This document shows, in pieces, positions 15,032 through 63,382 of a stretch of DNA of 64,000 nucleotides (position 1 is its first letter; every line of letters starts with the position of its first letter). The stretch spans positions 1 through 64,000 of IMG/VR virus record IMGVR_UViG_3300018044_000001, one strand, 5' to 3'. The DNA is from a virus. Below the pieces are notes generated by a model. That model ran no database searches. It had not been told where the DNA came from and worked only from the letters and a program-made list of their open reading frames with translations. The translations under genes and the position numbers were made by a program.

Positions 15032-15172
15032 TGAAGGGGCAGTGAGAGTAACGGCTACTTCCAATGCTAATGGAGAGGCATGGGTTCGAATCCCATCAGG
15101 CGTTGGCTTGCCAAGGCTTGTAGCTCAGCGGCAGAGCGCTAAAACTATCCGTTGCGATTGTTCTCCCCTTCA
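15032..15172 (+). ncRNA. YrlA-type Y RNA with permuted tRNA-like domain
   Basis: same Ro-binding scaffold as RNA 2; T-arm ATGGG-TTCGAAT-CCCAT precedes a loop-closed acceptor stem and D-arm GCTC-AGCGGCA-GAGC. Confidence 0.85.
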
Positions 15173-15190
15173 TCTATCGAAGGAGCAGCA

Positions 15191-16813
15191 ATGAGTAAGG
15201 TGAATCCAACAAAGCCAGCGGGTACCCCGGCCGATCACCTGAACTACATGGCTGGCCCTAGCTGGGATATCTCAGATCCCATCGCACGACTGCGCATGGT
15301 CGCGTCCTCGTGCTTCTTCGGCGAACCTCAGTATTACGTTGAGGCATCAAGCGAAGAGAAGAAGGGCCGTCGTCGTCCAACGATGTGGAACCGGCCTGAT
15401 GGCGAGTACCATCTGTCGCCCGCCATCATTAGGCACCTTGATGACATGCTCAACCGGATGGACCCACAGGAATGGCGTGGACTGGGTGCCAAGGAACGCA
15501 TGGAGGCAGCGATTGATGCTGCACTAGCCCATGACGTGGAGGCAACGCTACAAGTTGCCGTTGACTTGCGGCTGGCAGATCATATCCGCACCACGCCGCA
15601 AGTCATCTTGGTGCGTGCCGCCAACTATGAACCAGCCAAGGGTACGGGGCTGATCCGCAAGTACGCACCATCGATCATTCAGCGTACTGACGAACCTGCC
15701 GTACAGTTGGCGTATCAACTTGCGACCTACGGCAAGCCCCTGCCGAACTCACTTAAGAAGGCATGGCGTTCGTATCTGGCCGGTCAGTCGTCGTACTCGC
15801 TCGCCAAGTATCGCATGGAATCACGTGCGGTCAAGACAGTGGATGTTGTGAACCTGACCCACCCGGCAGGCAACTACATCAACCAACTAGTGCGCGGCGA
15901 GCTGGAAACGCCGAGCACGTGGGAGACCAAGGTGTCCGGCGCTGGGTCGACGCCCGAAGTATGGGCCGAGGCTTTTGACAGCATGGGGCACATGGCGCTG
16001 CTGCGTAACCTGCGCAACCTGATCAACAAGTCCTCTGTGGACCAGTACGACATCGCCACCAAGTTGTTCGCTGGTGCGGTGACGGGTCAGCAACTACCCT
16101 TCCGCTACTGGTCTGCGTACCAGGCAGTGAAGGGCGACAAGATCAAGCCGGTGCTGATGGAAAGCATCGAGGACAGCCTACGCAAATCGTGCGAGGCTCT
16201 GGCGTTTCCTGGTCGCGTGATGAGTTTGTGCGACAACTCAGGATCAGCGTGGGGTGCGTTGACCTCTGAATGGGGCACCGTGCATGTTGCCGAGATTGCC
16301 AACCTGACCGCTGTACTCACGGCATTCGCATCAGAGCACGGCGAGGTCGGCGTCTTCGGTGACACACTGTCTACGTTCACAGTGTCGCATCGTTCGTCCG
16401 TGTTTGACGCCGTAGAGAAAGCGAACAAGCTGGGACACGGCGTTGGCGGTGGTACCGAGCACGGTATCTGGCTGTTCTGGGACAAGGCGATCAAAGAGAA
16501 CATCCACTACGATGCGGTGTTCGTCTACTCAGACATGCAGGCTGGTCATGGTGGGCTGTACGGCAACTGCGGATATGACGCGTATGTCTGGCCTGGAGAT
16601 CCTAGATACCGTCGCTATATCGACGTGCCTAAGTTGATTAACACCTACCGCAGCAAGGTCAATCCCAACGTGGAGGTGTTTTTGGTGCAGGTCGCTGGTT
16701 ATCACGATACGATCGTGCCCGAGCACTACAATCACACGCACATTCTTGGCGGATGGTCTGAGGGCATTCTGCAGTACGCCCAGCGAGTCCTGAAACCGCT
16801 GCCACCTCAGTAG
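15191..16813 (+). CDS. Ro60/Rsr TROVE-domain RNA-binding protein with vWA domain
   Basis: YSLAKY, TWET, MALLRNLRNL, QLPFRYWSAY, DNSGS MIDAS-like motif, GGWSEGILQY; AGGAG RBS. Confidence 0.93.
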   Translation: MSKVNPTKPAGTPADHLNYMAGPSWDISDPIARLRMVASSCFFGEPQYYVEASSEEKKGRRRPTMWNRPDGEYHLSPAIIRHLDDMLNRMDPQEWRGLGAKERMEAAIDAALAHDVEATLQVAVDLRLADHIRTTPQVILVRAANYEPAKGTGLIRKYAPSIIQRTDEPAVQLAYQLATYGKPLPNSLKKAWRSYLAGQSSYSLAKYRMESRAVKTVDVVNLTHPAGNYINQLVRGELETPSTWETKVSGAGSTPEVWAEAFDSMGHMALLRNLRNLINKSSVDQYDIATKLFAGAVTGQQLPFRYWSAYQAVKGDKIKPVLMESIEDSLRKSCEALAFPGRVMSLCDNSGSAWGALTSEWGTVHVAEIANLTAVLTAFASEHGEVGVFGDTLSTFTVSHRSSVFDAVEKANKLGHGVGGGTEHGIWLFWDKAIKENIHYDAVFVYSDMQAGHGGLYGNCGYDAYVWPGDPRYRRYIDVPKLINTYRSKVNPNVEVFLVQVAGYHDTIVPEHYNHTHILGGWSEGILQYAQRVLKPLPPQ

Positions 16814-47685: not shown

Positions 47686-50600
47686 CTACGCATCCGAATA
47701 GGAAGGAGGAGTCGTACCAATGCCGACTCCAGTGATTCCCTGGATTAAGCCATTCCATGCCGATGTTGTTACTCACCGCATTCGGTGGGTCGCTTCATTT
47801 CTGAGCGGCTCTTGTCATCTCTGACAAGTCCAGATCATATCATCGTCCGTTTAGGACGCCCAGTACATGATCGTTGAACCTTCACCATCTTACAGGTGCT
47901 TGGCTGCTGATTGTCCCTACCGTTCGCTTCTCAAACCGTCACGCTTGCGTTTTCACGCTACGTTGTGGTGCGAACGTCTAGCAGGACGTTCCAGCAATTC
48001 TCTGAGTTTGCATCCATCCATTACTGGATGGTGGCCCCCAATCGAGGCGCATAGTGGCAGAACGTTCCGATCTCAACTTTGTTGTTACCGTTTACACGGG
48101 CCAGGTCATTTCTGCCTGACTCCCACCATCTCTGATGGGAACGGATCATATCTTCACCCGTTTGCACGGGGCACCGTACATGATCTCTGAAGCTTCCCCA
48201 GTGAAGGGGCTCGCCTGCTGATTGTCCATAGCCATTGCTTTTCAAGCCTTCACGCTCGCCCTTTCGAGCCACGTTGTAGCGCAATGGATTGGCTGGACGT
48301 TCCAGCAATTCTCGGTGTTGATTTTCATGCCTATTGCTAGGCAGCGACCCTGAAAATCCAGGTCGACGCGTCGTAGGTAAATTGAACTACTGGCCATTGC
48401 ACAGCTCGCTCTTGTTGCCGCTTGCGCGGGACACATTTGGTGTGTCTCTTCATGTCTCCATGAAGGCCGGACTATATCTTCACCCACTTGGGATGCTCAG
48501 TACATAGTCTCTGAACCTTCCCCTGTTTGGGGGCTCGGCTGCTGATTGTCCGTATCACCTGCTTCTCAAACCATCGCGCTCGCCCTTTCGGGCCACGCTG
48601 TGGTGCAGGTGCTTAGCCGGAGTTCCCAGCAATTCTCTGAGTTGCAACTGCGTATCGCTACGCAGCGACGCTCGCGTGAACGTAGTCTTGTGGCAGTACC
48701 ATAACCGATGTTTCAGCAACGTTGGAATCCGGTATCGGCAGGTTCTTCTGCCTGATCAGCGCATTACCCTGTGGAATCCACGGGTGCACAGTGATCGGAA
48801 CACTCGAACCAGTCACTTCGTTCATCAATGTCGAGACAACGACGCCAGCGTGGACGCCGCCCATCTCTGACTGATTCACGAAGATACGATACGCGCTGCT
48901 CTGAGGGTTGTTCAGGATCGCGTTGGAAAGCTGCAAACGGTCGAAGCCGTTCATCCAGACTTCCTCCGGGTCACTCTTCACAGCCTCATACAAGGAACCG
49001 AACGCATACTGGAACTCAACGCCAGGGTTGGTGGTGCTGAACGCCGCGTTCAACCTTGTCACATAGCCACCGGATGCGGCTACGTTGGTGAGCAATCCAT
49101 CGTAGTTAGTTGCGACCGCAGATGCGTCAAGACCGTTCGATGGAGTAACGGCAGGACCGCTCTGTGGGAAGGATGTCACATATCCGACGTTGTACCCGGT
49201 ACGACCTGCGTAGTAGGCCGATGCCGAAGACGACACCGAGGATACGAACAGGTTGTAGCCAAGTGCTCCAGTGGAGTCTGTGCCAATTGTTACCTGGACG
49301 GCCTGACCGGCGGTCACGGAAACAGATGCAGCCGCAGTAGTTGCGGACTGGTGCATCGTAGATCCGTTGACACCGAGCAGGTCACCAGCGTCGGCGGCCG
49401 CCGTCACCCACAACGTTGTCGTTGGGATGGTGGACTTGCCACCGGGAGCTAGGGATGCGCTGACTGCGGCTAGGGTCAATGCCCCTGGTGCAGCAAGAGC
49501 GCCCGCGTAGCCTGACTGGCTGCCGCGTCCGTAAAGCATGAGCCTTTCATCAATCAACATCGTGGAGTAGAGAAGGGCGGTGTTGCTCAAAGAACGTACG
49601 TCTTCGAAGCCCTGTCCCTGATACTCCCGTACTTGTGACCGTCCTCCAAAGGACGGGTCGCATCATTTCTGTGCGACTCTTCACGTTACCGTGAAGCGCG
49701 GACTATATCTTAATCTGCAAGGAGTCTCTTGCGACTCCAGTGTCCTGGCGATGCGCGCCATGCTAAGATGGCGGTTTGCAACTGGTCCCTTCGTCTTTGC
49801 TTCAGCCATGGCCACATGGCAACGGCTAGTGCATACGCATCGGCACCATGAGCACGATAGTCCCATAATGGCCGATGTTTCATGCTAGGCGATTGGCGCG
49901 GGCCGTTACACGTGCCCACTCCTGCCAGTTCGTGAAAGGTGCGGATTACGTCTTCGTCAATCATGCTGATAGCACAACGAAAACCCACCGTTGTAAAGGG
50001 ACGTCCATCGGCCCGCACATACGAGCGTGGTCGACCCTGTACATACCCTTCACCTTCAAACACTCCAGCCATCCAGGCTAGATTCTCGCGTGTCCAGTTT
50101 TTTGATCTGTTTGCAGATTCCATGCGCTTAGTCTCTGAGCCTTCCTCGTAGCTTGCGCCTTAGAGGCTTTGGTTGCTGATTACCCTATACTAGCACTTCT
50201 CAAACCGTCGCGCTCACGTTTTCACGTCACGCTGTGGTGTGCTTCGCTTCAGGGCGTCCCAGCAGTTTTCATGGTTGTCATCTGCCTATCGCTAGGCAGC
50301 GGACCCTAGTTGAGCCTGCCACGATACTGAGTCCGATAGCGACGTTGTGACGTATGGAAGCGTCACGCTGTAACCATCGTAGTTGATGTAAGGTCCACGA
50401 ATGTAGCTTAACCCGCCAGGACCAGAGGAGTTCAGGTAGGATTCCGTGATACCCGGCTGCACCGTAGTGGCACCGCCTGTTGATGTACCCGTGAACCCGC
50501 TGATCACCTTGAACTGTCGGTTAGCGCCTTGACCCTTGACTCTTGGAATCGAATTTCGCAAGGGTGTCGGACGAGGCGTCAAAAGTTTGGCCGGAGCCTC

Positions 50601-54973: not shown

Positions 54974-55423
54974 TTAGATTCCTAACGCAGCACCCCACGC
55001 GTCACGAAAGATGCGAGGTATGACAGGTAGCGCCTTGTCGACGCCTGGCTGCAGGTAGGCGTACGGGGGCTGGTTGAAGTGTCTGCCCAAACTGTCCGTA
55101 CCCGTGAAACCCAGCTCGATGCGACGACCATAGATCATTGTCGGTGCGACAGATATGGTGTATTTGCCAGGTCCGAGCATGATCGGCTCTGGTGGGATGA
55201 GCATGATGGACCGACGCAACGAACCTGTCACTACGTTCGGACGGTTGCCACCTACGTGCGGTTGTCCCTTCGGATGGTTGCCCTCGAACTCACGCCTGGC
55301 GTTGTCCCTAATGAGCAGAGCACCTGTAGCCGTACCCGCTTTGGTTGCCTCGTTGATTCGCTTGATCAACGCGTCCATGGAATCGTTGAAACCCTTGGCG
55401 TCGATTTTGAAGCCACCAGGCAT
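54974..55423 (-). CDS. HK97 gp10-like head-tail protein
   Basis: PNVVTGSLRRSI, YGRRIELG, PYAYLQPG; TAATG overlap with portal stop. Confidence 0.8.
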   Translation of the reverse strand: MPGGFKIDAKGFNDSMDALIKRINEATKAGTATGALLIRDNARREFEGNHPKGQPHVGGNRPNVVTGSLRRSIMLIPPEPIMLGPGKYTISVAPTMIYGRRIELGFTGTDSLGRHFNQPPYAYLQPGVDKALPVIPRIFRDAWGAALGI

Positions 55424-58400
55424 TACTCGTACCCCGTCACTGCTGTGCTTGCACAACGACACAGAGGATGCTCGGGAATGGACGGATCATCGGTGCCAAC
55501 GTCATACGGGCCATTGTCGGCATTCTCTAGGCAATCCTCGCACGCGTTGTCTTCGGCAATCCACCCCCACTGCGAGATACCGTTGACTTCGTATGTATCC
55601 TGCGATGCTGTCTCCGCTGCCCGACAACATTCTGTGTCCGCTATCATGTACGCATTGGCCGTCACGGCATCACTTAGTGACGTGGCAATCGTGTCTACAC
55701 TGTCGCCCCTCGCAATCCCATCCGCGAGCACATTGCCAACACGGTCAATCCCGTTGTCAATCGCAGACTTGATAGTGATGCCAGCCTGCTCAAGTAGTTG
55801 CTGCAGTCCACCATTGGCAACGAGGTCGGATGCTTGGATACTGCCAGGAGTCCAGTCGTCCCATGACAACGCAGTACCGATAGCCATCTGTGCATCAGGT
55901 GATATCTGTTGTGCCGCTGCGTGCGAGCCGACCATGTAACTCTCGGCAATAAGATCACGCAGGATTTGCGCGGCTGATGACTGTGCTACGGTGACGTTCA
56001 TTGCAGCAGCAGATTGGGCAATGCCCTGGTCGTCTGCACCACCACCAGCATCAGCGACTGCCTTCGCAGCAGTCTTACGCTGTGCCTCATCTATCGCCTG
56101 GTGCAACCCCTTGGTGCTGTGCTTCAGTGCTGCCGTGAGTAATGGGGCGTAGTGGGCGACGATGGCGTCGCGGAGGGCGTCGATGGGGTGTGTTGCTTTT
56201 GCTAACCACGGAGGTAGTGTCCATGATCCCACAGACTTTGCAGCAGATGGTGTCTGCACCGTGAACTGAATCGTGCCGTCCTTCTTGATACCTGTCACTA
56301 CGTAGTCAGATCCACGAGGCAGGATCACCTCGCCTTGTCCTGTCCACGTCATCAGTGCGTGCGAACCGGCAGGTATGTTGATCTCTACGTTGTGGCCAGG
56401 ACGGAAGTCGCCGTATTGATTGGCCATTTCACGCAGCATCGTCGTGGACTCATAACCAGGATCGTGATAGGTGTCGCCTACTTTCAATCCTTCAAGCGGT
56501 GCAGCATTCGTAAAGCCACGGTAGACCGTCGTGTCTGCTGTTACTGTCCTGCTTGCGATGGCACTGTCAAGACCCTTGACCTGACCAGCGAAGCCACGAG
56601 TAGAACCGCTTTCGCGTAGTCCGATGTTAACATCAGCACCGCCTGCGGGCCTCGTGTAATCCGATACCGCTCGTGCCTCAGATGCAGTCAGCGGACGCTC
56701 TTCCTTGAACGTTCCCGCGTCGTGAATGGCTGCCAATTGTCGCTCTGCCGCTGTTGGCTTCATGCCTTCAAACGGCGGCGAGTAAACGCAGGGATTGCTC
56801 TCGCCGCTCGACGCTGCGGCACGACCGCCACCACCACTTATGTGTGCAGTGCGTGCACCATCCTCGTTGTGACTACCACCAGTGACGTCAGGCGGGCGAC
56901 TAGCACTAGGGGATGAAGTTCTGCCGCCGCCACGGCCATACAGATCCTCGTAAGATGTGACGTGTCCGCCACCGCTGCCAAACTCGCCCTGCGCGTTACG
57001 CTCCTGAGTCTCCCACGAGTCGCCCCATTTGGCTAGTTGCTCAGGGGTAGTTAGCCCACGAGAGTGGGCGGGATCTTTTGGGTCTGCTTTGACCGCATTG
57101 TTAGCTTTGTCGCCACCCAAAGCAAATCGCACTACTTCATCGCCACGATGTACCGACAGGTAATCAAACGTCAGCGGTGTCAGTGGTAGTGGCTTAGGTA
57201 GCGGATCATCAGGGTCTAGATAAGCAAGCGTGATGTGGGGCATGAAGTCATGTTCACTAGCACTCAGGTCTTCCAGTGCTTCGCGCAAGTCAGTAATGCC
57301 AGCAATGTTGGGCACAACATACACTGGTTTCAGTCCGTCGCTACTTGCCGATGGAGCAAACGACGCAATGCCGCTGATGGTACCAGTCAAAGGTCCGGGC
57401 GCGTCCTTCGCTGCCTTACGGGCTGCATCGCATGCTTCAGCAAATGACTTATCGTCAACGTCTGGACCGAGATAAACGACCGTCAGGTGAAAATCTGTGA
57501 TTCCACCAGATAGCGGAGTAATCACACCGTCAGGCACGTCAAGAGATATCATGCCAGAACGTGGATTCAGGTCGTACGCCTGTGCACTCTTTACCGCGCC
57601 GAGCAGGCTCCAATCTGAACTTTGGCATTCCACTCTGACAGCACTATTCCCAACAACGTCACTAGGCTCCCACCATGCAGCAGCAGCAATCTCGCCGGTG
57701 TCGCGATCAGTCACGTCACCGAGGTCGATGGCAGACTCGTGCTTGATTTGCAGAACGAACGCTTGGTACGTACCGTCAGGTGTGAGCCATGAGCCGGTGA
57801 TGTCACCTTGAGGAAGTGGCAGGCCAACTTCGGCTTGCCATTCCCTGGTAGCACCAGAGAACGCGTCCTCGCCTTTGTGACACTGGCCGCCGGGCCATTC
57901 CCATGTGCCCGGTGCTAGATGGTCGTCGTTCACGCGCTGCACCATGAGAACACGGCCGGTATCGGCGGCGAGGACGATTATGCCAGCAGCGTCGGGTTGG
58001 GCGTTGACGACGGACTTGATAGCATCGAGATCACCAGCACGTCCGAGGTCGTTTAGATGTCTGCCCTGTACGCTGGCCACTGCGGAGAACGAAAAGTCGC
58101 GCCAGCTTCCGCGGTCGATGCGTGCCTTGGCGAACTTGACGAATGACTTGAGTTCCTTCTCTGCGTCCGTGTCGGATTCGCTCTTGGAATCGCTGGCAGA
58201 ACTGTCCTTGCTTGGACTTGATCCTGTAAGCTCAGTATTTCCGTCAGAGTCTGTCGAAGTTCCTCCAGCTGCGCTACCAGTTGGCTTGCGTCCGCTGTTA
58301 TCGTCAGGTGTACTTCCGTTGGCATTAGCGTCTGTGCCTCCATTGTTTGCGGCAGGTGGTGGAACTGGTGAACCGTCAGGTGCGGTCGGAAGGGGCTTGC

Positions 58401-60090
58401 CGTCAGGACCGACAAATACTTGCTTGGGGGGTTCTGGTGGATTGAGGGTGGCTTCGGTGTTCGCGTCTTGGACGGCGAGAGTGCCCTTGAGGAACACTGG
58501 ACCTTGTGCTCCGGCAATGAACGGTTCGTCGGCTTCCGGCATGGAGTACAGGGGCAGCCCGTTCTTTGCGCGCCAGTCGTTCAACGTGATACGACCGTTG
58601 TTGACGGTCTGTGTGTCGGCGTTGGCCTGTTGCAGAATGTCCTGCTCAGAACCGCCAGTGTCTTGACAAGTAGCGGTAATCTCACGACCGATACCAAGGT
58701 AGCGACGAGCTAGGTCGTTTTGTACGTCAATCAGGAAGTTGACAAACGCTTCAGTGACGAAGTGTTCGGTCTGGTCTTCCTCGCCCTCCATCTGGCGACC
58801 GCCAGACAGTCCAGCCTTTGCCTGCACACCTAACTGTGTCGCGGGAACGCCAAACTTGGACCCCATCTGAATGATGAGAAAATTGTCGTAGTCCGACTTG
58901 TAGTGCTCTTCAATTTGCGGTGGCCACTCGGGCTTCATGCCGGGAGGCAACAGGAACGCTTGCTGACGACGGTTGATCTGACCGCTCAAACGGTCATTCA
59001 TGGTCTGTTCATATCCGAATTGTTGTTCAGGCGTCCACCCTGTCGGATTGTCCTTGTCCATCGTGTAGTACGTTTTGGGGGACATTCCGTAAACGTATTC
59101 AGACCTCATCCACGCCTGACGCTGCAGATACGTCGTAGCGACTGTCATGACCTCTTCGGTCGGAGGATAGCCATAGACAGATTCGGGACGGGGACGACGG
59201 ATGTAATACGCCAACTGGTCGCTGGCAAACTCACCCTCGACGGGGCCATCGCCAGCTTGGAATTCCCCGCGTGGAAAGCCGTATAAGATTTGCTGGAAGG
59301 CAGGGGCGGGAGGCTCGGGAGGAAAGCCCTGATTGTCGAGCAGTATCTTAATCGTGCTCGTGTCAATCGGTGCCAGCGCAAAGAGATCGCCGCCAAGGGT
59401 CCGCTGTGGGTATATGCAGATACCGTCATATACCAGGGACTGCCAGATGATCTCCGCGAGCCACTGTGAGGGCGAGTGCTTGCTGCGCTGGTCGGGACGC
59501 TCGAAGAACGACTTAACGCGATCAAGCTCGGTGCCGTATTTGTCGGCGGCGAGGGCCATGGCGCGGGCGTGGTTCGCTTCGCCCGTGTCTCGCATAATCT
59601 GTTCAATAATTGAGTCGCTATACCCCCACGACCAATCGCGACCACAGATGCCGTCTTGTACCAACTGGATGCACCTATTGACCACATCACATTCTTCTGC
59701 AATCCACTTCAGCGCGGTCCACGGGAGTGCTCTGTCCGCGAGTTGTAAATTTATGGCTACCAGGTACTGTGCACGACGCGGTAGGGCACGACCGCCAGGA
59801 CCAAGCGCGTCTATCGCGTCAGGGAAGAGTGGTACGCCCGGACCAAAGCCAGAGTTGAAATCACCCAGAGGACGAGGCAACGGCACATATCCCGGCACTT
59901 GTCCTGCCGTCTGTGCAAACGGTGACGACGGGTTGGGAATGTACGTAGCACCGCTAACAGCGCGGCCCTGCGAGTTGGCAGCGGCCGCGACAATATCGCG
60001 ACTCATCGCCTTCTCGACGCCCGCCTCAACCGCTGCACTGAGTGCAGCCTGTTTGCGTTCTGTACGGCGCGACAGGATGGGGATGGCCAA
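55423..60090 (-). CDS. portal protein fused to Nudix, 2H phosphoesterase, ADP-ribosyltransferase and MuF domains
   Basis: portal (AFQQILYGFP, SVYGYPPTE, FGVPATQLG); Nudix WEWPGG..REWQAEVG; 2H HLTV/HITL; ART VYRG..ESTT..QGEVILPRG; MuF CEDC..HPLCRC. Confidence 0.88.
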   Translation of the reverse strand: MAIPILSRRTERKQAALSAAVEAGVEKAMSRDIVAAAANSQGRAVSGATYIPNPSSPFAQTAGQVPGYVPLPRPLGDFNSGFGPGVPLFPDAIDALGPGGRALPRRAQYLVAINLQLADRALPWTALKWIAEECDVVNRCIQLVQDGICGRDWSWGYSDSIIEQIMRDTGEANHARAMALAADKYGTELDRVKSFFERPDQRSKHSPSQWLAEIIWQSLVYDGICIYPQRTLGGDLFALAPIDTSTIKILLDNQGFPPEPPAPAFQQILYGFPRGEFQAGDGPVEGEFASDQLAYYIRRPRPESVYGYPPTEEVMTVATTYLQRQAWMRSEYVYGMSPKTYYTMDKDNPTGWTPEQQFGYEQTMNDRLSGQINRRQQAFLLPPGMKPEWPPQIEEHYKSDYDNFLIIQMGSKFGVPATQLGVQAKAGLSGGRQMEGEEDQTEHFVTEAFVNFLIDVQNDLARRYLGIGREITATCQDTGGSEQDILQQANADTQTVNNGRITLNDWRAKNGLPLYSMPEADEPFIAGAQGPVFLKGTLAVQDANTEATLNPPEPPKQVFVGPDGKPLPTAPDGSPVPPPAANNGGTDANANGSTPDDNSGRKPTGSAAGGTSTDSDGNTELTGSSPSKDSSASDSKSESDTDAEKELKSFVKFAKARIDRGSWRDFSFSAVASVQGRHLNDLGRAGDLDAIKSVVNAQPDAAGIIVLAADTGRVLMVQRVNDDHLAPGTWEWPGGQCHKGEDAFSGATREWQAEVGLPLPQGDITGSWLTPDGTYQAFVLQIKHESAIDLGDVTDRDTGEIAAAAWWEPSDVVGNSAVRVECQSSDWSLLGAVKSAQAYDLNPRSGMISLDVPDGVITPLSGGITDFHLTVVYLGPDVDDKSFAEACDAARKAAKDAPGPLTGTISGIASFAPSASSDGLKPVYVVPNIAGITDLREALEDLSASEHDFMPHITLAYLDPDDPLPKPLPLTPLTFDYLSVHRGDEVVRFALGGDKANNAVKADPKDPAHSRGLTTPEQLAKWGDSWETQERNAQGEFGSGGGHVTSYEDLYGRGGGRTSSPSASRPPDVTGGSHNEDGARTAHISGGGGRAAASSGESNPCVYSPPFEGMKPTAAERQLAAIHDAGTFKEERPLTASEARAVSDYTRPAGGADVNIGLRESGSTRGFAGQVKGLDSAIASRTVTADTTVYRGFTNAAPLEGLKVGDTYHDPGYESTTMLREMANQYGDFRPGHNVEINIPAGSHALMTWTGQGEVILPRGSDYVVTGIKKDGTIQFTVQTPSAAKSVGSWTLPPWLAKATHPIDALRDAIVAHYAPLLTAALKHSTKGLHQAIDEAQRKTAAKAVADAGGGADDQGIAQSAAAMNVTVAQSSAAQILRDLIAESYMVGSHAAAQQISPDAQMAIGTALSWDDWTPGSIQASDLVANGGLQQLLEQAGITIKSAIDNGIDRVGNVLADGIARGDSVDTIATSLSDAVTANAYMIADTECCRAAETASQDTYEVNGISQWGWIAEDNACEDCLENADNGPYDVGTDDPSIPEHPLCRCASTAVTGYE

Positions 60091-60891: not shown

Positions 60892-60974
60892 TGCGGATGG
60901 TGGGACTTGAACCCACATGCCTAACGGCAGTCGCTTTTAAGGCGACCGTGTATACCAATTCCAACCACATCCGC
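60892..60974 (-). tRNA. tRNA-Leu(TAA)
   Basis: GTCGC-CTTAAAA-GCGAC, long variable arm. Confidence 0.92.
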
Positions 60975-60978
60975 GTAG

Positions 60979-61052
60979 CACCCCTGGCGGGACTCGAACC
61001 CGCATCATACCATTACGGTTACTTGCTTAGAAGACAAGACCGATACAGGGGC
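60979..61052 (-). tRNA. non-canonical tRNA-Arg(TCT)-like, no 5' D-arm
   Basis: GCCCCTG-TA-TCGGT-CTTGT-CTTCTAA-GCAAG-TA-ACCG-TAATGG..T-arm. Confidence 0.7.
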
Positions 61053-61053
61053 G

Positions 61054-61129
61054 TGACGGGGGCGGGATTTGAACCACGCGACCTCTAGGTTATGGGCCTA
61101 GCGAGCTGACCAAACTGCTCTACCCCGCG
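61054..61129 (-). tRNA. initiator-like tRNA-Met(CAT)
   Basis: CGCGGGG start with 1:72 mismatch; CTAGG-CCCATAA-CCTAG. Confidence 0.8.
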
Positions 61130-61201
61130 TGGCAGATGTTGGTATCGAGCCAACCAGACACGATCCTTATGAGAGATCGCCGCTTACCCTGAGCAACTGC
61201 C
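61130..61201 (-). tRNA. atypical tRNA-Met/Ile2(CAT)
   Basis: CGATCT-CTCATAA-GGATCG; shortened connector and D-arm, T-loop CTCGATA. Confidence 0.6.
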
Positions 61202-61203
61202 GG

Positions 61204-61276
61204 GGTGACGGGGGGAACTCGAATCCCCTTGCACTAGGGCCACAACCTAGCCGCGTACCACGATGCGTCCCGTCAC
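61204..61276 (-). tRNA. tRNA-His(GTG)
   Basis: CTAGG-TTGTGGC-CCTAG; C discriminator. Confidence 0.8.
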
Positions 61277-61278
61277 AG

Positions 61279-61349
61279 TACCAGTGGAAGGTGTCGAACC
61301 TCCGTCCCAACTTTGTAAGAGTTGTCGTCTCCCGTTGACATACACTGGC
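61279..61349 (-). tRNA. tRNA-Val(TAC)
   Basis: CAACT-CTTACAA-AGTTG. Confidence 0.8.
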
Positions 61350-61353
61350 GTAG

Positions 61354-61425
61354 TGCTCCTACCCGGACTCGAACCGAGAATGCCTGCTTAAAGGGCAGAA
61401 CCGTTTCCATTACGATCATAGGAGC
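61354..61425 (-). tRNA. tRNA-Lys(TTT)
   Basis: CTGC-CCTTTAA-GCAG (C33). Confidence 0.75.
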
Positions 61426-61427
61426 AA

Positions 61428-61502
61428 TGGTAGGCGACCAGGGAATCGAACCCTGTATCAGACCATATCAGAGTCTGCGATTAGCCGTCTTCTTCGTCGC
61501 CC
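61428..61502 (-). tRNA. tRNA-Ile(GAT), CCA encoded
   Basis: CAGACT-CTGATAT-GGTCTG; weak D-arm. Confidence 0.75.
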
Positions 61503-61503
61503 G

Positions 61504-61578
61504 TGGTGGTCCCTGTCGGACTCGAACCGACCTCTCTGCGTCTTCAGCGCGGCGCTAATCCGTCTCAGCTAAAGGACC
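61504..61578 (-). tRNA. tRNA-Phe(GAA), CCA encoded
   Basis: GCG-CTGAAGA-CGC; canonical T-arm. Confidence 0.8.
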
Positions 61579-61582
61579 GTAG

Positions 61583-61659
61583 TGCGGGCCGCGGGACTCG
61601 AACCCGCATGGACCGTATTACCCTTTCAACATTTCATAAGAATGAGGGGATACGCCCGC
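61583..61659 (-). tRNA. non-canonical tRNA-Ile(TAT)-like, no 5' D-arm
   Basis: GCGGGCG-TA-TCCCC-TCATT-CTTATGA-AATG..AGGG-TAATACGG..T-arm. Confidence 0.62.
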
Positions 61660-61661
61660 AA

Positions 61662-61735
61662 TGGAGCCGATGGCAGGAGTTGAACCCGCGTCTGGTGAGT
61701 ACAAAACACCTGTACTTCCGTTGTACGACACCGGC
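61662..61735 (-). tRNA. tRNA-Thr(TGT), CCA encoded
   Basis: GGTGT-TTTGTAC-TCACC. Confidence 0.85.
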
Positions 61736-61738
61736 AAA

Positions 61739-61886
61739 TGTCGCCCCTAGTCGCGTCGAAATCCTTGGGTAGCTAATCCCAACCTGCTGCGGTTACCAAG
61801 CGCAGCCACGACCAATGGAACCCTCCGCGTACGAGTAACGCGGCACCAGTCACGGACTATTAACCGTTGTCAGGGGTGGGGCGACA
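61739..61886 (-). ncRNA. unassigned structured RNA within the tRNA array
   Basis: 9-bp closing stem TGTCGCCCC/GGGGCGACA enclosing four hairpins. Confidence 0.6.
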
Positions 61887-61887
61887 G

Positions 61888-61960
61888 CTCCGAGGGTAGG
61901 AATCGAACCCACGCGCACTGGGTCCAAGGCCCAGCTACGAAACCAACATCGTACCTCGGA
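61888..61960 (-). tRNA. tRNA-Gln(TTG)
   Basis: CTGGG-CCTTGGA-CCCAG (C33). Confidence 0.8.
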
Positions 61961-61961
61961 A

Positions 61962-62035
61962 TGGAACGGCTGACCCGACTCGAACGGGCGTATTCAGGGT
62001 GGAAACCTGACGCTCTGCCTCTGAGCTACAACCGC
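61962..62035 (-). tRNA. tRNA-Gly(TCC), CCA encoded
   Basis: TCAGG-TTTCCAC-CCTGA. Confidence 0.9.
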
Positions 62036-62036
62036 A

Positions 62037-62111
62037 TGGAGCGACTAGCGGGAGTCGAACCCGCACTTGCACCATGGCGAGGTGCCGTCATAGCCACTAG
62101 ACCATAATCGC
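62037..62111 (-). tRNA. tRNA-Gly(GCC), CCA encoded
   Basis: GCACC-TCGCCAT-GGTGC (C33). Confidence 0.87.
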
Positions 62112-62113
62112 AT

Positions 62114-62188
62114 TGGAGCGCAGGGTCGGAATCGAACCGACGAAAATGCGGGTTGCAGCCGCACGCCTTCCCATTCAGCCACCTACGC
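62114..62188 (-). tRNA. tRNA-Cys(GCA), CCA encoded
   Basis: TGCGG-CTGCAAC-CCGCA; U discriminator. Confidence 0.9.
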
Positions 62189-62192
62189 ACAG

Positions 62193-62266
62193 CTCCGGCG
62201 GGAAGAGTCGAACTTCCATGATGAGCACCTTAACGGGATGCTGGCTTGCCATTAGCCCACACCGGA
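62193..62266 (-). tRNA. tRNA-Asn(GTT)
   Basis: GCATC-CCGTTAA-GGTGC (C33). Confidence 0.83.
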
Positions 62267-62270
62267 ATAG

Positions 62271-62342
62271 TGATCCGTACCAGAATCGAACTGGTGTCTC
62301 AGGCTTGAGGGGCCTGCGTACGTACCTCTGTACCAACGGATC
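62271..62342 (-). tRNA. tRNA-Glu(CTC)
   Basis: CAGGC-CCCTCAA-GCCTG (C33). Confidence 0.83.
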
Positions 62343-62358
62343 TTTGTACTAATAGACT

Positions 62359-62434
62359 TGGTACTCCCAGTCGGAATCGAACCGGCGTTTCGACCTTGAA
62401 AGAGTCGCGTCCTCTGCCGCTAGACGATGGGAGC
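62359..62434 (-). tRNA. tRNA-Glu(TTC), CCA encoded
   Basis: CGACT-CTTTCAA-GGTCG. Confidence 0.92.
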
Positions 62435-62439
62435 CTTCG

Positions 62440-62622
62440 TTACATCCACACCAACTGTTCCACCATCGCATTGATCGACAACCCGACGAACGACAGCAAC
62501 AGAATCAGACCCATGAACACCAACGACACTACGTCAAGTTGTACCGTCAAGAATAGCGGGATCGCAAGTAGCCACGCGGTGCGATAGATCCACGACTCGA
62601 TGCGTTGCAGGCGGTCAATCAT
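62440..62622 (-). CDS. small membrane protein inside the tRNA array
   Basis: AAGGAG RBS; two hydrophobic segments. Confidence 0.6.
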   Translation of the reverse strand: MIDRLQRIESWIYRTAWLLAIPLFLTVQLDVVSLVFMGLILLLSFVGLSINAMVEQLVWM

Positions 62623-62641
62623 GTGGCTCCTTTTGTTGCAG

Positions 62642-62725
62642 CGGAAAGTCGGCGAGTCGGACGCCATGGCTTGCACCACCAACGCGCTTCCAACGCGTGC
62701 CCATCACCGTCAGGGTTGACTTTCC
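62642..62725 (-). tRNA. tRNA-Ser(GGA), 8/4 type
   Basis: GGAAAGTC/GACTTTCC acceptor, 4-bp T-stem, ACGCG-TTGGAAG-CGCGT. Confidence 0.8.
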
Positions 62726-62788
62726 ATGGCGCAACGCCTACACGCGCAGTGCACAGCGCCACCTCCACCCACTTCCTCGGCGTTGCAG

Positions 62789-62872
62789 CGGATGACGGGC
62801 CATTCGAAGACCAAGCCGTGAAGCTCACACCGCTTTCGAGGCGGGTCTGGTTCCCTGTCCAGTTCATCATCC
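62789..62872 (-). tRNA. tRNA-Ser(CGA), 8/4 type
   Basis: GGATGATG/CGTCATCC, GGTC-TTCGAAT-GGCC, CCGC-CTCGAAA-GCGG. Confidence 0.8.
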
Positions 62873-62876
62873 AGAG

Positions 62877-62961
62877 CGGTAGGGTGAGAGCACGATTCCC
62901 AGGCCAAGAGGCCCCAGACGGGTTCAAGCCGTCGCCGCTAACCCTGAACGGTTACCCTACC
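62877..62961 (-). tRNA. tRNA-Ser(TGA), 8/4 type
   Basis: GGTAGGGT/ACCCTACC, GACGG-CTTGAAC-CCGTC, T-loop ATCGTGC. Confidence 0.78.
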
Positions 62962-62962
62962 G

Positions 62963-63046
62963 CGGAAGACGGGATACTCGAAAACCACACCTTGCAGTGC
63001 GCACTCGTTAGCAGCGAGGCCCGGCACCCTGTCCGGTTCGTCTTCC
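62963..63046 (-). tRNA. tRNA-Ser(GCT), 8/4 type
   Basis: GGAAGACG/CGTCTTCC, CTCG-CTGCTAA-CGAG. Confidence 0.8.
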
Positions 63047-63050
63047 TTAG

Positions 63051-63123
63051 CGTCGCCGGTGGGACTCGAACCCACATCTCCCATTACGGCTACCGACTTA
63101 GGAGGTCGGGCCGGTACGACGAC
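63051..63123 (-). tRNA. non-canonical tRNA-Arg(CCT)-like, no 5' D-arm
   Basis: GTCGTCG-TA-CCGGC-CCGAC-CTCCTAA-GTCGG-TA-GCCG-TAATGG..T-arm. Confidence 0.72.
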
Positions 63124-63198: not shown

Positions 63199-63308
63199 AA
63201 TAGGTAGAGCTTCCCACACTCCCGAGTGCGTACATTCACCCGGCTACGTCGTAAACGACGGGTGTACCAGATGGCGTTGGCTGTCATGGCTGGTGGTAAA
63301 ACGGCTCG

Positions 63309-63382
63309 TACCCCCGGCACGATTCGAACGCGCGTCTCCTGATCCGTAGTCAGGTGCTACAAATCCACTCAGCTACGGGGGC
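63309..63382 (-). tRNA. tRNA-Arg(ACG)
   Basis: CCTGA-CTACGGA-TCAGG. Confidence 0.9.

What the first reader, a model, noticed from the sequence alone, without database searches (positions are those of the whole stretch)
60979..63123. Three re-wired tRNAs (UCU, UAU, CCU) with the D-loop moved 3' of the anticodon arm
At 60979-61052, 61583-61659 and 63051-63123 the acceptor strand and U8A9 lead through only 5 nt into the anticodon arm. After the arm comes a strand complementary to that linker (covarying CGGT/ACCG, CGGC/GCCG, CCCT/AGGG), then a D-loop-like TAAT(AC)GG, then a canonical T-arm. This is what results if the two D-stem strands are reconnected so the L-shape and G18G19-T-loop contact are kept. 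The anticodons read AGA, AGG and AUA, typically rare codons in GC-rich hosts. Standard tRNA finders would probably miss these or call them pseudogenes. I do not know of a description of this topology but cannot exclude one.
Basis: partly seen in the sequence, partly recalled or inferred. Interest (0 to 1): 0.86.

Follow-up and report, generated by a model that had tools for sequence, protein, structure and literature searches.

The report
Three rewired phage tRNAs (Arg, Arg, Ile)
Three genes in this peat phage's tRNA cluster belong to a large, virus-borne and apparently undescribed family of arginine and isoleucine tRNAs whose core pieces are strung in a different order from the universal cloverleaf, though they keep the marks of working tRNAs.

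Summary
On the minus strand, 60979-61052 (anticodon UCU), 61583-61659 (UAU) and 63051-63123 (CCU) each have:
- a 7-bp acceptor stem, then U8-A9;
- exactly 5 nt leading into a normal anticodon arm;
- a bulge, then a strand that pairs back with that 5-nt segment (helix H1);
- a D-loop-like U-A-A-U-(AC)-G-G stretch;
- a canonical T-arm.

ARAGORN and the Rfam tRNA model miss all three.

They are members of a large family, not oddities.
- I collected 115 distinct members, nearly all from viral contigs; ARAGORN at default of 115.
- H1 covaries: two pairs form in 69 of 69 aligned members, with 23 and 34 double changes.
- A covariance model built without this phage scores the three genes 58-80 bits. 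Every ordinary tRNA in the window scores 28 bits or less.
- The base after GG is A in 93 of 96 Arg members and U in 16 of 16 Ile members. Discriminators are A, G or U for Arg and always A for Ile. Both match published bacterial identity rules.
- A Levitt-type 15:48 covariation is kept.

With four other uncalled Ser genes, the three complete a 20-amino-acid tRNA set. Charging and decoding are inferred, not shown. Seven literature searches found no description. The scan has noted this family many times on other DNA.

The parts
60979..61052 (-). c1: rewired tRNA-Arg(UCU), 74 nt, discriminator G, no encoded CCA
   Evidence: fold. R1 scores it 81.9 bits and the leave-out model R2 scores it 80.3 bits. 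It fills a tRNA-sized slot, 0 nt after tRNA-Met and 4 nt before tRNA-Leu.
61039..61042 (-). c1 H1 5' strand (CGGU, RNA positions 11-14)
   Evidence: Pairs with 61016-61019. The family pairs 11-47, 12-46 and 13-45 covary.
61016..61019 (-). c1 H1 3' strand (ACCG), after the 2-nt bulge UA
61004..61015 (-). c1 junction strand UAAUGGUAUGAU (D-loop-like part plus A-U before the T-stem)
   Evidence: U follows GG here, one of 3 exceptions among 96 Arg-class members.
61029..61031 (-). c1 anticodon UCU in loop CUUCUAA
61583..61659 (-). c2: rewired tRNA-Ile(UAU), 77 nt, discriminator A, no encoded CCA
   Evidence: R1 scores it 64.3 bits and R2 scores it 58.2 bits. Unannotated homologues lie in Rhodococcus phage Peregrin and bajarodcaudo virus 1.
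61646..61649 (-). c2 H1 5' strand (CCCC; the first three pair in the family register)
   Evidence: The MFE fold uses a register shifted by one base.
61621..61624 (-). c2 H1 3' strand (AGGG), after the bulge UGAA
61608..61620 (-). c2 junction strand UAAUACGGUCCAU; U follows GG, as in all Ile-class members
61636..61638 (-). c2 anticodon UAU in loop CUUAUGA (G at position 37)
   Evidence: position 37 is G in 2 of 16 Ile-class members.
63051..63123 (-). c3: rewired tRNA-Arg(CCU), 73 nt, discriminator G, no encoded CCA
   Evidence: R1 scores it 74.7 bits and R2 scores it 72.8 bits. It lies 1 nt after tRNA-Thr(GGU) and 4 nt before tRNA-Ser(GCU).
63110..63113 (-). c3 H1 5' strand (CGGC)
63087..63090 (-). 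c3 H1 3' strand (GCCG), after the bulge UA
63076..63086 (-). c3 junction strand UAAUGGGAGAU
   Evidence: The base after the first GG is G; read as GGG-A, an A follows instead.
63100..63102 (-). c3 anticodon CCU in loop CUCCUAA

Best explanation
The three genes are working elongator tRNAs: Arg-UCU for AGA/AGG, Arg-CCU for AGG, and Ile-UAU for AUA. They belong to a virus-borne family in which the segment that corresponds to canonical positions 10-45 is circularly permuted.

Proposed mapping:
- After U8-A9 the chain enters the strand that stands in for canonical 22-26. This segment is always 5 nt.
- It then runs through the anticodon arm.
- It returns, through a purine-rich bulge, as the strand that stands in for 10-13.
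- It continues into a D-loop (A14, R15, G18, G19, position 20, A21).
- It joins the T-stem through Y48.

The stack of H1 on the anticodon stem has the same number of layers as the D-stem on the anticodon stem. The elbow contacts (G18/G19 with the T-loop, U8-A14, R15-Y48) can therefore form, and the molecule can be L-shaped.

The phage has no synthetase or CCA-adding enzyme of its own. The tRNAs would be cut out of the array transcript, given CCA, and charged by host ArgRS and IleRS. These would read the anticodon, the discriminator and the base at 'position 20' of the transposed D-loop.

Shown: the architecture, its covariation, the conservation pattern, the identity-base correlation and the genomic setting. 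Inferred: processing, charging, decoding and the 3D fold.
For: 1. H1 covaries. Pairs 11-47 and 12-46 are standard pairs in 69 of 69 sequences, with 23 and 34 double-sided changes; 13-45 pairs in 50 of 69. The whole structure is 92.3% paired, against 37-47% when the partners are slid. RNAalifold finds the same helices de novo.

2. A leave-out model built from 66 sequences of other contigs scores c1 80.3, c3 72.8 and c2 58.2 bits. The best ordinary tRNA in the window scores 28.0.

3. In a scan that fixed only the 5' half, 34 sequences passed acceptor and anticodon-stem criteria. Of these, 32 have a perfect T-arm with a UUCRA loop and 31 have U-A-R-(N0-2)-GG directly after H1.

4. In 36 members found without constraint on the junction strand:
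- it starts U-A-R in 36 of 36;
- its second-to-last base is A in 36 of 36;
- R15 with the last base is A:U in 31, G:C in 3, A:C in 1 and G:G in 1 (Fisher p = 6e-4).

5. Identity bases across 115 distinct members:
- Arg class: A after GG in 93 of 96; discriminator A 38, G 33, U 25, C 0.
- Ile class: U after GG in 16 of 16; discriminator A in 16 of 16.
- These match Table 1 of PMC9976931 (bacterial Arg: A20, C35, U/G36, A/G/U73; bacterial Ile: A73, U20; passages read).

6. Anticodons seen are only Arg (UCU, CCU, UCG, ACG, GCG, CCG), Ile (UAU, GAU), one CAU and one UAC.

7. Genomic setting:
- Each gene sits in a tRNA-sized slot with 0-4 nt spacers.
- The 27 ARAGORN-called tRNAs lack any AGR or AUA decoder and any Ser.
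- With c1-c3 and four uncalled Ser genes, the set covers all 20 amino acids.
- The phage uses AGA 87, AGG 129 and AUA 129 times in 21,908 sampled codons.

8. The phage has no ArgRS, no class Ia Ile/Val/Leu synthetase and no CCA-adding enzyme domain; the control genomes were positive.

9. [quoted passage not shown]

10. An RNA-library contig matches 60927-61077 exactly and spans c1 with parts of both neighbouring tRNAs. This is weak evidence.
Against: - There is no direct evidence of processing, CCA addition, charging or decoding. The RNA-library contig could come from DNA carry-over, and contigs cannot show ends.
- c1 has U and c3 has G where 93 of 96 Arg-class members have A. The canonical tRNA-Arg(ACG) of the same array has A after its GG (sequence read).
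- c2 has G37 where 14 of 16 Ile-class members have A. It also has a G.G at acceptor pair 7-66 and a U.U at 27-43, and it scores lowest of the three.
- H1 is short: 3 bp in the consensus, and only 2 bp in one subfamily (13-45 is unpaired in 19 of 69). The fourth pair forms in only 8 of 69.
- Single-sequence z-scores are modest.
- The covariation and Fisher tests are not corrected for relatedness.
- The 3D mapping rests on recalled knowledge of canonical tRNA tertiary pairs, not on a model or on probing.
Confidence: 0.75

Rival explanations
1. They are working tRNAs, but of the mitochondrial D-armless kind. H1 merely lengthens the anticodon stem, the strand before the T-arm is a flexible linker, and there is no tertiary core or fixed L-shape.
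For: - The secondary structure is a three-way junction with an extended anticodon helix. [quoted passage not shown]
- Bacterial translation tolerates a D-armless tRNA (PMC11551756).
- H1 is only 2-4 bp.
Against: - mt-tRNA-Ser(GCU) has lost the TΨC motif, C56 and the G19:C56 pair, and lacks any tertiary core.
- Here the T-loop is UUCRA in 32 of 34 unbiased hits.
- The linker always carries U-A-R...GG and a second-to-last A (36 of 36).
- R15 covaries with the base before the T-stem.
- The base after GG tracks amino-acid identity.
- The 5' segment is always exactly 5 nt. A passive linker would not be expected to keep these features.
Confidence: 0.12
2. They are tRNA-like RNAs that are not used in decoding. 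For example, they could be decoys or sponges for host tRNA-targeting defence nucleases or modification enzymes, or regulators of host synthetases.
For: - Phage tRNAs are reported to counter tRNA-cleaving defences (PMC10264068 and PMC11555353, abstracts in the search listings only).
- No charging or decoding data exist.
- c1 lacks the A20-type base, and c2 has G37.
Against: - The anticodons are restricted to sense anticodons of Arg and Ile (plus one CAU and one UAC), with the matching discriminator and position-20 base. This is what charging requires and what a decoy does not need.
- They fill exactly the decoding gaps of an otherwise complete tRNA set.
- The anticodon loops are standard 7-nt loops with U33 and a purine at 37.
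Confidence: 0.08
3. They are decayed tRNA pseudogenes, or chance tRNA-like spacers in the array.
For: Standard finders reject them. The z-scores of c2 and c3 are unremarkable.
Against: - 115 distinct homologues share one architecture with compensatory changes.
- The leave-out model gives E-values of 1e-14 to 1e-20.
- A close relative carries all three at the same bit scores.
- No listed change falls within c2 or c3 in a divergent strain whose adjacent tRNA-Phe differs at many places.
Confidence: 0.02

Closest known systems
Canonical class I bacterial and phage tRNA (Rfam RF00005), for example the tRNA-Arg(ACG) at 63308-63382 and the tRNA-Ile(GAU) at 61428-61502 of the same array
   Same: A 7-bp acceptor stem, U8-A9, a 5-bp anticodon stem with a 7-nt loop and U33, a 5-bp T-stem with a UUCRA loop, and a D-loop-type A-R...GG motif. 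R15:Y48 covaries. The identity bases (position 20, 35, 36, 73) follow the bacterial Arg and Ile rules (PMC9976931).
   Different: There is no D hairpin between position 9 and the anticodon stem. The two D-stem-like strands flank the anticodon arm, and the D-loop lies directly before the T-arm. There is no separate variable loop. The secondary structure is a three-way junction, not a four-way one. RF00005 and ARAGORN do not recognise it.
D-armless metazoan mitochondrial tRNA-Ser(GCU/AGY) (human structure: PMC9427863)
   Same: It has no D hairpin, and the bases that replace it extend the anticodon stem. It reads an AGN box, as c1 and c3 do.
   Different: The mitochondrial tRNA has lost TΨC, C56, G19:C56 and the whole tertiary core. 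It is flexible, and a co-evolved SerRS recognises it by its odd T-arm. The phage family keeps a canonical T-loop, GG, A14, R15:Y48 and a position-20 identity base, and it must use ordinary host synthetases.
Engineered D-armless 'mini HisT' in E. coli (PMC11551756)
   Same: It shows that a bacterial synthetase, EF-Tu and the ribosome can use a tRNA without a D hairpin.
   Different: It is an artificial deletion with no D-loop retained, and it needed a host RNase mutation to accumulate. The authors state that no natural non-cloverleaf tRNA is known in bacterial translation.
Permuted tRNA genes of the red alga Cyanidioschyzon merolae (recalled from my own knowledge; no call)
   Same: They involve circular permutation of tRNA sequence order.
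   Different: As I recall, the gene is permuted there but processing through a circular intermediate restores an ordinary cloverleaf tRNA. Here the permutation would persist in the mature molecule and affects only the inner segment 10-45.
The 'rewired phage tRNA-Arg/Ile' family recorded by earlier agents of this scan on other genomes
   Same: The layout, the anticodon classes and the failure of gene finders are the same. My tests here reproduce these points independently.
   Different: Those are unchecked AI notes on other DNA. This window has three members in one array (two Arg and one Ile). Two of the three depart from the family's A-after-GG rule.

Membership tests
Canonical cloverleaf tRNA (RF00005 / ARAGORN definition) | A D-arm hairpin (3-4 bp stem plus loop) between position 9 and position 26 | tested here: not met
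   Only 5 nt lie between A9 and the anticodon stem in c1, c2 and c3. RF00005 gives no match at E <= 10. ARAGORN default of 3.
Canonical cloverleaf tRNA (RF00005 / ARAGORN definition) | A 7-bp acceptor stem, a 5-bp anticodon stem with a 7-nt loop, and a 5-bp T-stem with a TΨC-type loop | tested here: met
   c2 has one non-standard pair in the acceptor stem (7-66) and one in the anticodon stem (27-43).
Canonical cloverleaf tRNA (RF00005 / ARAGORN definition) | Processed, given CCA, aminoacylated and used on the ribosome | not testable with these tools
   The only evidence is an RNA-library contig spanning c1. Contigs cannot show ends or charging.
Rewired (permuted-core) phage tRNA family, as defined operationally here from A1/A2 | Acceptor, then UA, then exactly 5 nt, then the anticodon arm; the 3-4 nt before U-A-R pair with positions 11-14 | tested here: met
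   c1 and c3 form all 4 pairs; c2 forms 3 in the family register.
Rewired (permuted-core) phage tRNA family, as defined operationally here from A1/A2 | The junction strand is U-A-R-(N1-3)-GG-N...A-Y, directly before a canonical T-arm | tested here: met
   c1 has UAAUGG...AU, c2 has UAAUACGG...AU, and c3 has UAAUGG...AU.
Rewired (permuted-core) phage tRNA family, as defined operationally here from A1/A2 | Scores well above ordinary tRNAs with a model that did not see the sequence | tested here: met
   R2 gives 80.3, 72.8 and 58.2 bits, against 28.0 or less for the other tRNAs of the window.
D-armless mitochondrial tRNA-Ser(GCU) | No D hairpin; the replacement bases extend the anticodon stem | tested here: met
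   compared with PMC9427863.
D-armless mitochondrial tRNA-Ser(GCU) | Loss of the T-loop/D-loop tertiary core (no TΨC, no C56, no G19:C56) | tested here: not met
   The T-loop is UUCGAGU in all three genes, and GG and A-R are retained. These genes are therefore not members of this kind.
Bacterial tRNA-Arg identity set (PMC9976931, Table 1) | C35, U/G36, and discriminator A, G or U | tested here: met
   c1 has UCU with G73, and c3 has CCU with G73.
Bacterial tRNA-Arg identity set (PMC9976931, Table 1) | A20 in the D-loop | tested here: inconclusive
   The family has A after GG in 93 of 96. c1 has U, so the feature is not met if that base is position 20. c3 has G, or A if the loop is read GGG-A.
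Bacterial tRNA-Ile identity set (PMC9976931, Table 1) | A73, A35, U36, A38, U20 | tested here: met
   c2 has discriminator A, anticodon UAU, A38, and U after GG.
Bacterial tRNA-Ile identity set (PMC9976931, Table 1) | A37 (the t6A site) | tested here: not met
   c2 has G37. Of 16 Ile-class members, 14 have A37.

The most novel reading that the evidence does not exclude
These are the first natural tRNAs with a circularly permuted core that work in bacterial translation. They would be L-shaped and charged by ordinary host class Ia synthetases through an identity base in a transposed D-loop. The rewiring would have spread through phages because it lets their Arg and Ile tRNAs escape host enzymes (defence nucleases or others) that need a contiguous D-arm. 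The layout may have arisen by tandem duplication of segment 10-45 followed by loss of the outer halves.
Probability: 0.25. Interest if true: 0.95.

Novelty: new variant of a known kind. Interest (0 to 1): 0.85.

Why it matters
The cloverleaf is treated as universal outside organelles. A 2024 paper states that no tRNA departing from it is known in bacterial translation (PMC11551756).

A large natural family that keeps the tertiary core but reconnects it differently would matter in several ways:
- It would show that the order of tRNA segments is not fixed by function.
- It would give a natural test bed for what synthetases, RNase P, EF-Tu and the ribosome really read.
- It could supply orthogonal scaffolds for genetic-code engineering.

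There are practical consequences too.
- Phage tRNA inventories are systematically incomplete. Here 3 rewired genes, 4 Ser genes and 1 CAU-like gene are missed out of about 35, and two public phage records carry unannotated members.
- Codon-usage and 'why do phages carry tRNAs' analyses therefore miss AGR and AUA decoders in particular.

Tried and rejected
- blastn of the whole array against cultured phages found only short hits to ordinary tRNAs. blastn of c1 alone found nothing.
- Host inference from the portal protein failed: the best cultured relatives share 29% identity or less.
- The first 8 kb around the Brucella cytisi copy were uninformative. A further 19 kb showed prophage genes.
- The phage carries no ArgRS, no class Ia synthetase and no CCA-adding enzyme, so a dedicated phage synthetase is rejected.
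- RNA runs: no RNA-library contig covers c2 in full. The only RNA pieces on c3 are 18-22-nt matches from longer foreign contigs. This says nothing either way. With only one read-laying run I could not lay a silent control stretch, so the c1-spanning contig is not proof of transcription.
- Folding-energy z-scores are too weak to carry the case.
- I looked for a pseudoknotted D-arm, with the 5' linker pairing downstream of GG. c1 has no complementary stretch there (read).
- My first Levitt count wrongly included members found with a pattern that fixed those positions. One search gives the corrected count.
- Of 83 parsed candidates, 14 were dropped before alignment. Twelve were ordinary tRNAs whose D-arm my parser took for the anticodon arm. 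L218 and L142 are probable members with parsing problems; L142 scores 68.8 bits.
- The look-up of earlier findings by sequence found nothing.
- Supplementary files of papers were not consulted and may hold tRNA lists that bear on the novelty claim.
- tRNAscan-SE was not available.

Full report
WHERE THE WINDOW COMES FROM. The window is the first 64 kb of an 88,572-bp IMG/VR virus genome with direct terminal repeats, rated 100% complete, with 57% G+C. PHROG matches to a tape measure, a portal fusion and a minor tail protein mark it as a tailed phage. It comes from a peat metagenome and recurs in other peat, pond and wetland data sets. Its portal shares 29% identity or less with any cultured phage, so the host is unknown.

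THE tRNA ARRAY. The minus strand from 60675 to 64855 carries a dense tRNA array. ARAGORN genes in the whole genome, and Rfam confirms most of them. The called set has no tRNA-Ser, no decoder for AGA or AGG, and none for AUA.

THE OBSERVATION. They sit 0-2 nt from the upstream gene and 4 nt from the downstream gene. Read on the minus strand, c1 (60979-61052) and c3 (63051-63123) have:
- a 7-bp acceptor stem, then U-A and one linker base;
- a 4-nt strand, then a 5-bp anticodon stem with a 7-nt loop (anticodons UCU and CCU);
- a 2-nt bulge, then a 4-nt strand complementary to the first;
- U-A-A-U-G-G plus 5-6 bases;
- a T-arm with loop UUCGAGU, the acceptor 3' strand and discriminator G.

The minimum-energy and centroid folds show exactly this.

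c2 (61583-61659, anticodon UAU, discriminator A) has the same plan, with four differences. It has a longer bulge, two extra bases in the D-loop-like motif, a U.U at the top of the anticodon stem and a G.G at the seventh acceptor pair.

None of the three is called by ARAGORN or reaches the Rfam tRNA model even at E <= 10. The only Rfam hits are tRNA-Sec at 25 and 17 bits, far below its cut-off of 47. Shuffle z-scores are modest at -2.7, -1.8 and -1.6. The single sequences alone would therefore not be convincing.

A LARGE FAMILY. I scanned IMG/VR for the hallmark of a D-loop-like TAATGG a few bases before a T-arm. Parsing the hits gave 83 distinct candidates. I dropped 14 of them: 12 ordinary tRNAs that my parser mis-read and 2 probable members with parsing problems. 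The remaining 69 were aligned.

On this MAFFT alignment the proposed structure is 92.3% paired, against 37-47% when the partners are slid by 1-3 columns. For the new helix H1:
- pairs 11-47 and 12-46 are standard pairs in 69 of 69 sequences, with 23 and 34 double-sided changes;
- 13-45 pairs in 50 of 69;
- the fourth pair, 14-44, forms in only 8 of 69, c1 and c3 among them.

RNAalifold, given no structure, predicts the same four helices with a 3-bp H1.

A covariance model (R1) separates the three genes (81.9, 74.7 and 64.3 bits) from all other tRNAs of the genome (28.7 bits or less). R1 had seen the three genes, so I rebuilt the model from the 66 sequences of other contigs. This model, R2, gives 80.3, 72.8 and 58.2 bits, against 28.0 or less for the rest of the window.

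REMOVING THE CIRCULARITY ABOUT THE D-LOOP. The first scans fixed the D-loop-like motif, so its conservation in that sample proves nothing. I therefore scanned with the 5' half only: the acceptor end, UA, CGG and the UCU loop. That gave 108 distinct 90-mers, many of them chance hits in coding DNA. Of these, 34 passed criteria that look only at the acceptor and the anticodon stem.
- 32 of the 34 have a perfect 5-bp T-stem with a UUCRA loop.
- 31 of the 34 have U-A-R-(N0-2)-G-G directly after the H1 3' strand.
- A follows GG in 29 of those 31.

I then took the 36 members found either by this scan or by the model alone. In all 36 the junction strand begins U-A-R, and its second-to-last base is A. 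Its last base is U in 31, C in 4 and G in 1.

The second purine and the last base covary as the canonical Levitt pair does. The counts are A:U 31, G:C 3, A:C 1 and G:G 1 (Fisher p = 6e-4, not corrected for relatedness). An earlier count was wrong and is superseded.

IDENTITY MARKS. Pooling all sources gave 115 distinct members.
- Anticodons are Arg (UCU, CCU, UCG, ACG, GCG, CCG), Ile (UAU, GAU), one CAU and one UAC.
- The Arg class has A after GG in 93 of 96. Its discriminators are A 38, G 33, U 25 and C 0.
- The Ile class has U after GG in 16 of 16, and discriminator A in 16 of 16. The CAU and UAC members also have U and A.

These are the bacterial identity sets in Table 1 of the review PMC9976931. 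That table lists A20, C35, U/G36 and A/G/U73 for Arg, and A73, U20 and others for Ile (passages read).

This is the strongest indirect evidence that the transposed loop works as a D-loop and that host synthetases charge these RNAs. All four amino acids belong to subclass Ia synthetases. The review places Arg in that subclass; the other assignments are from my own knowledge.

The window's own genes are partly exceptional. c1 has U after GG. c3 has G, or A if the loop is read GGG-A. c2 has G37 where 14 of 16 Ile members have A37.

PROPOSED MECHANISM (INFERENCE). The always-5-nt segment after A9 has the length of canonical positions 22-26, and it runs straight into position 27. The strand before U-A-R stands in for positions 10-13, and it runs straight into A14.

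Counting layers gives ten: a top non-Watson-Crick pair (N10 with the U before A14), three Watson-Crick pairs, one mismatch or pair next to the anticodon stem, and five anticodon-stem pairs. This equals the D-stem, the 26.44 pair and the anticodon stem of a normal tRNA.

The order [22-26][27-43][44-45][10-13][14-21] is a circular permutation of [10-45]. The three new junctions are 9 to 22, 45 to 10, and 21 to 48. As I recall the yeast tRNA-Phe structure, these join residues that already lie next to each other in canonical tRNA. The relevant contacts are the 45.10-25 and 9.12-23 triples and the stacking of A21 with U8-A14 under 15-48. No call tested this.

The molecule could thus keep the L-shape and the elbow.

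The phage has no ArgRS, no class Ia Ile/Val/Leu synthetase and no CCA-adding enzyme domain (positive controls ringing). None of the three genes encodes CCA. Host enzymes would therefore have to process and charge them. Work on an engineered D-armless tRNA shows that E. coli HisRS, EF-Tu and the ribosome tolerate loss of the D hairpin (PMC11551756).

ROLE IN THIS PHAGE. The phage uses AGA 87, AGG 129 and AUA 129 times in 21,908 codons of 77 long ORFs. ARAGORN at a lowered threshold finds four tRNA-Ser genes (GCU, UGA, CGA, GGA) in the 'empty' stretch 62641-63046. With these and c1-c3, the array decodes all 20 amino acids. Without them it lacks Ser, AGR and AUA.

A 29-kb contig of a close relative shares about half of the sampled 30-mers. 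It carries the same three genes at the same bit scores. In a more divergent strain, no listed change falls in c2 or c3, while the adjacent tRNA-Phe differs at many places.

One wetland metatranscriptome holds a 151-nt contig identical to 60927-61077. It spans c1 and parts of both neighbouring tRNAs. This fits a precursor transcript, but it could be DNA carry-over.

WHERE THE FAMILY LIVES. Model searches of the fetched viral loci found 8 and 72 hits in two sets of 100 loci. Several contigs carry two or three members.

Two public phage records carry unannotated Ile-UAU members. They are Rhodococcus phage Peregrin (49.9 bits, in an intergenic gap) and bajarodcaudo virus 1 (64.3 bits).

In one genome for each of 185,579 prokaryote species, the stricter motif matched only 32 stretches, and 11 loci hold a hit of 60 bits or more. 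Two of these are obvious phage tRNA arrays binned into MAGs, with 27 and 8 tRNAs.

The only isolate among the 11 is Brucella cytisi ESC1. Its copy lies next to a chromosomal tRNA-Thr at the edge of a prophage with an endolysin, an 841-bit tail-fibre match and a tail protein. In its bacterial order, 3 of 151 sampled genomes have a hit. The family is thus essentially virus-borne in what I searched.

COMPARISON WITH WHAT IS KNOWN. The closest natural analogue is the D-armless mitochondrial tRNA-Ser(GCU). Its replacement bases also extend the anticodon stem. That tRNA, however, has lost TΨC, C56, G19:C56 and all tertiary core, and it depends on a co-evolved synthetase (PMC9427863). The phage family keeps all of these marks, so it works more like a canonical tRNA with different wiring.

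Seven full-text searches found no description of such tRNAs. PMC11551756 says that none is known in bacterial translation. Subscription journals and supplementary files were not searchable.

Earlier agents of this scan have recorded the same family many times on other genomes: 112 notes in at least 93 genomes, for both Arg and Ile-UAU forms. Those notes are unchecked. I used them as leads only, and I reproduced their core claims here with independent data.

VERDICT.
- About 0.75: the three genes are functional tRNAs of a permuted-core family.
- About 0.12: they are functional but lack a canonical core.
- About 0.08: they are tRNA-like RNAs that do not decode.
- About 0.02: they are pseudogenes or chance.

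The remaining uncertainty is experimental: processing, charging, decoding and the 3D fold.

Noticed in passing
window 62641-62725, 62788-62872, 62876-62961, 62962-63046 (minus strand): Four tRNA-Ser genes (GGA, CGA, UGA, GCU) that ARAGORN at default and Rfam miss; ARAGORN finds them at an 80% threshold. Each can form an eighth acceptor pair with a 4-bp T-stem, has 'AA' before the D-stem, and has a long variable arm. Two of them have non-TΨC T-loops. They are the phage's only Ser tRNAs. As I recall, the 8/4 layout resembles allo-tRNA and tRNA-Sec; I did not test this.
   Followed up: partly
window 61130-61201 (minus strand): A 72-nt tRNA-like gene with anticodon CAU fills the slot between tRNA-His and tRNA-Met. 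It has a 7-bp anticodon stem and T-loop CUCGAUA, and one mismatch in the acceptor stem. Neither ARAGORN nor Rfam calls it. It could be a second AUA decoder (lysidine type) or a Met tRNA.
   Followed up: no
window 61736-61886 (minus strand): A 151-nt spacer inside the tRNA array folds strongly (-60.5 kcal/mol) and has no Rfam family. RNA-library contigs of two wetland metatranscriptomes match it exactly (61690-61896 and 61672-61943).
   Followed up: partly
window 47811-48054, 48448-48689, 49679-50339 (minus strand): Three group I intron matches lie within 2.5 kb (54.8, 74.9 and 54.4 bits). They presumably interrupt one or more phage genes.
   Followed up: no
window 15152-16813 (plus strand): A 553-aa protein matches phrog_850, 'RNA-binding protein' (E = 1e-34). 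It may be Ro-like (my guess). Weak YrlA (Y RNA-like) Rfam hits lie in the tRNA array.
   Followed up: no
window 55423-60090 (minus strand): A 1555-aa ORF joins a portal, a NUDIX hydrolase, an RNA-ligase-like stretch and a MuF-like minor head domain.
   Followed up: no
L179:3407-3493 and L154:944-1017: Two family variants. One is an 87-nt Arg-UCG member with an extra hairpin inserted in the junction strand. The other is an Arg-CCU member with a non-canonical T-loop.
   Followed up: no
L383:5552-5642 and L387:6340-6429: Tool-annotated as a Bacteroidales MAG and Prevotella pectinovora, these contigs hold 90-nt tRNA-like genes that score 47-48 bits with R1. They have a long nested helix and no standard 7-nt anticodon loop. 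They may be another odd class.
   Followed up: no
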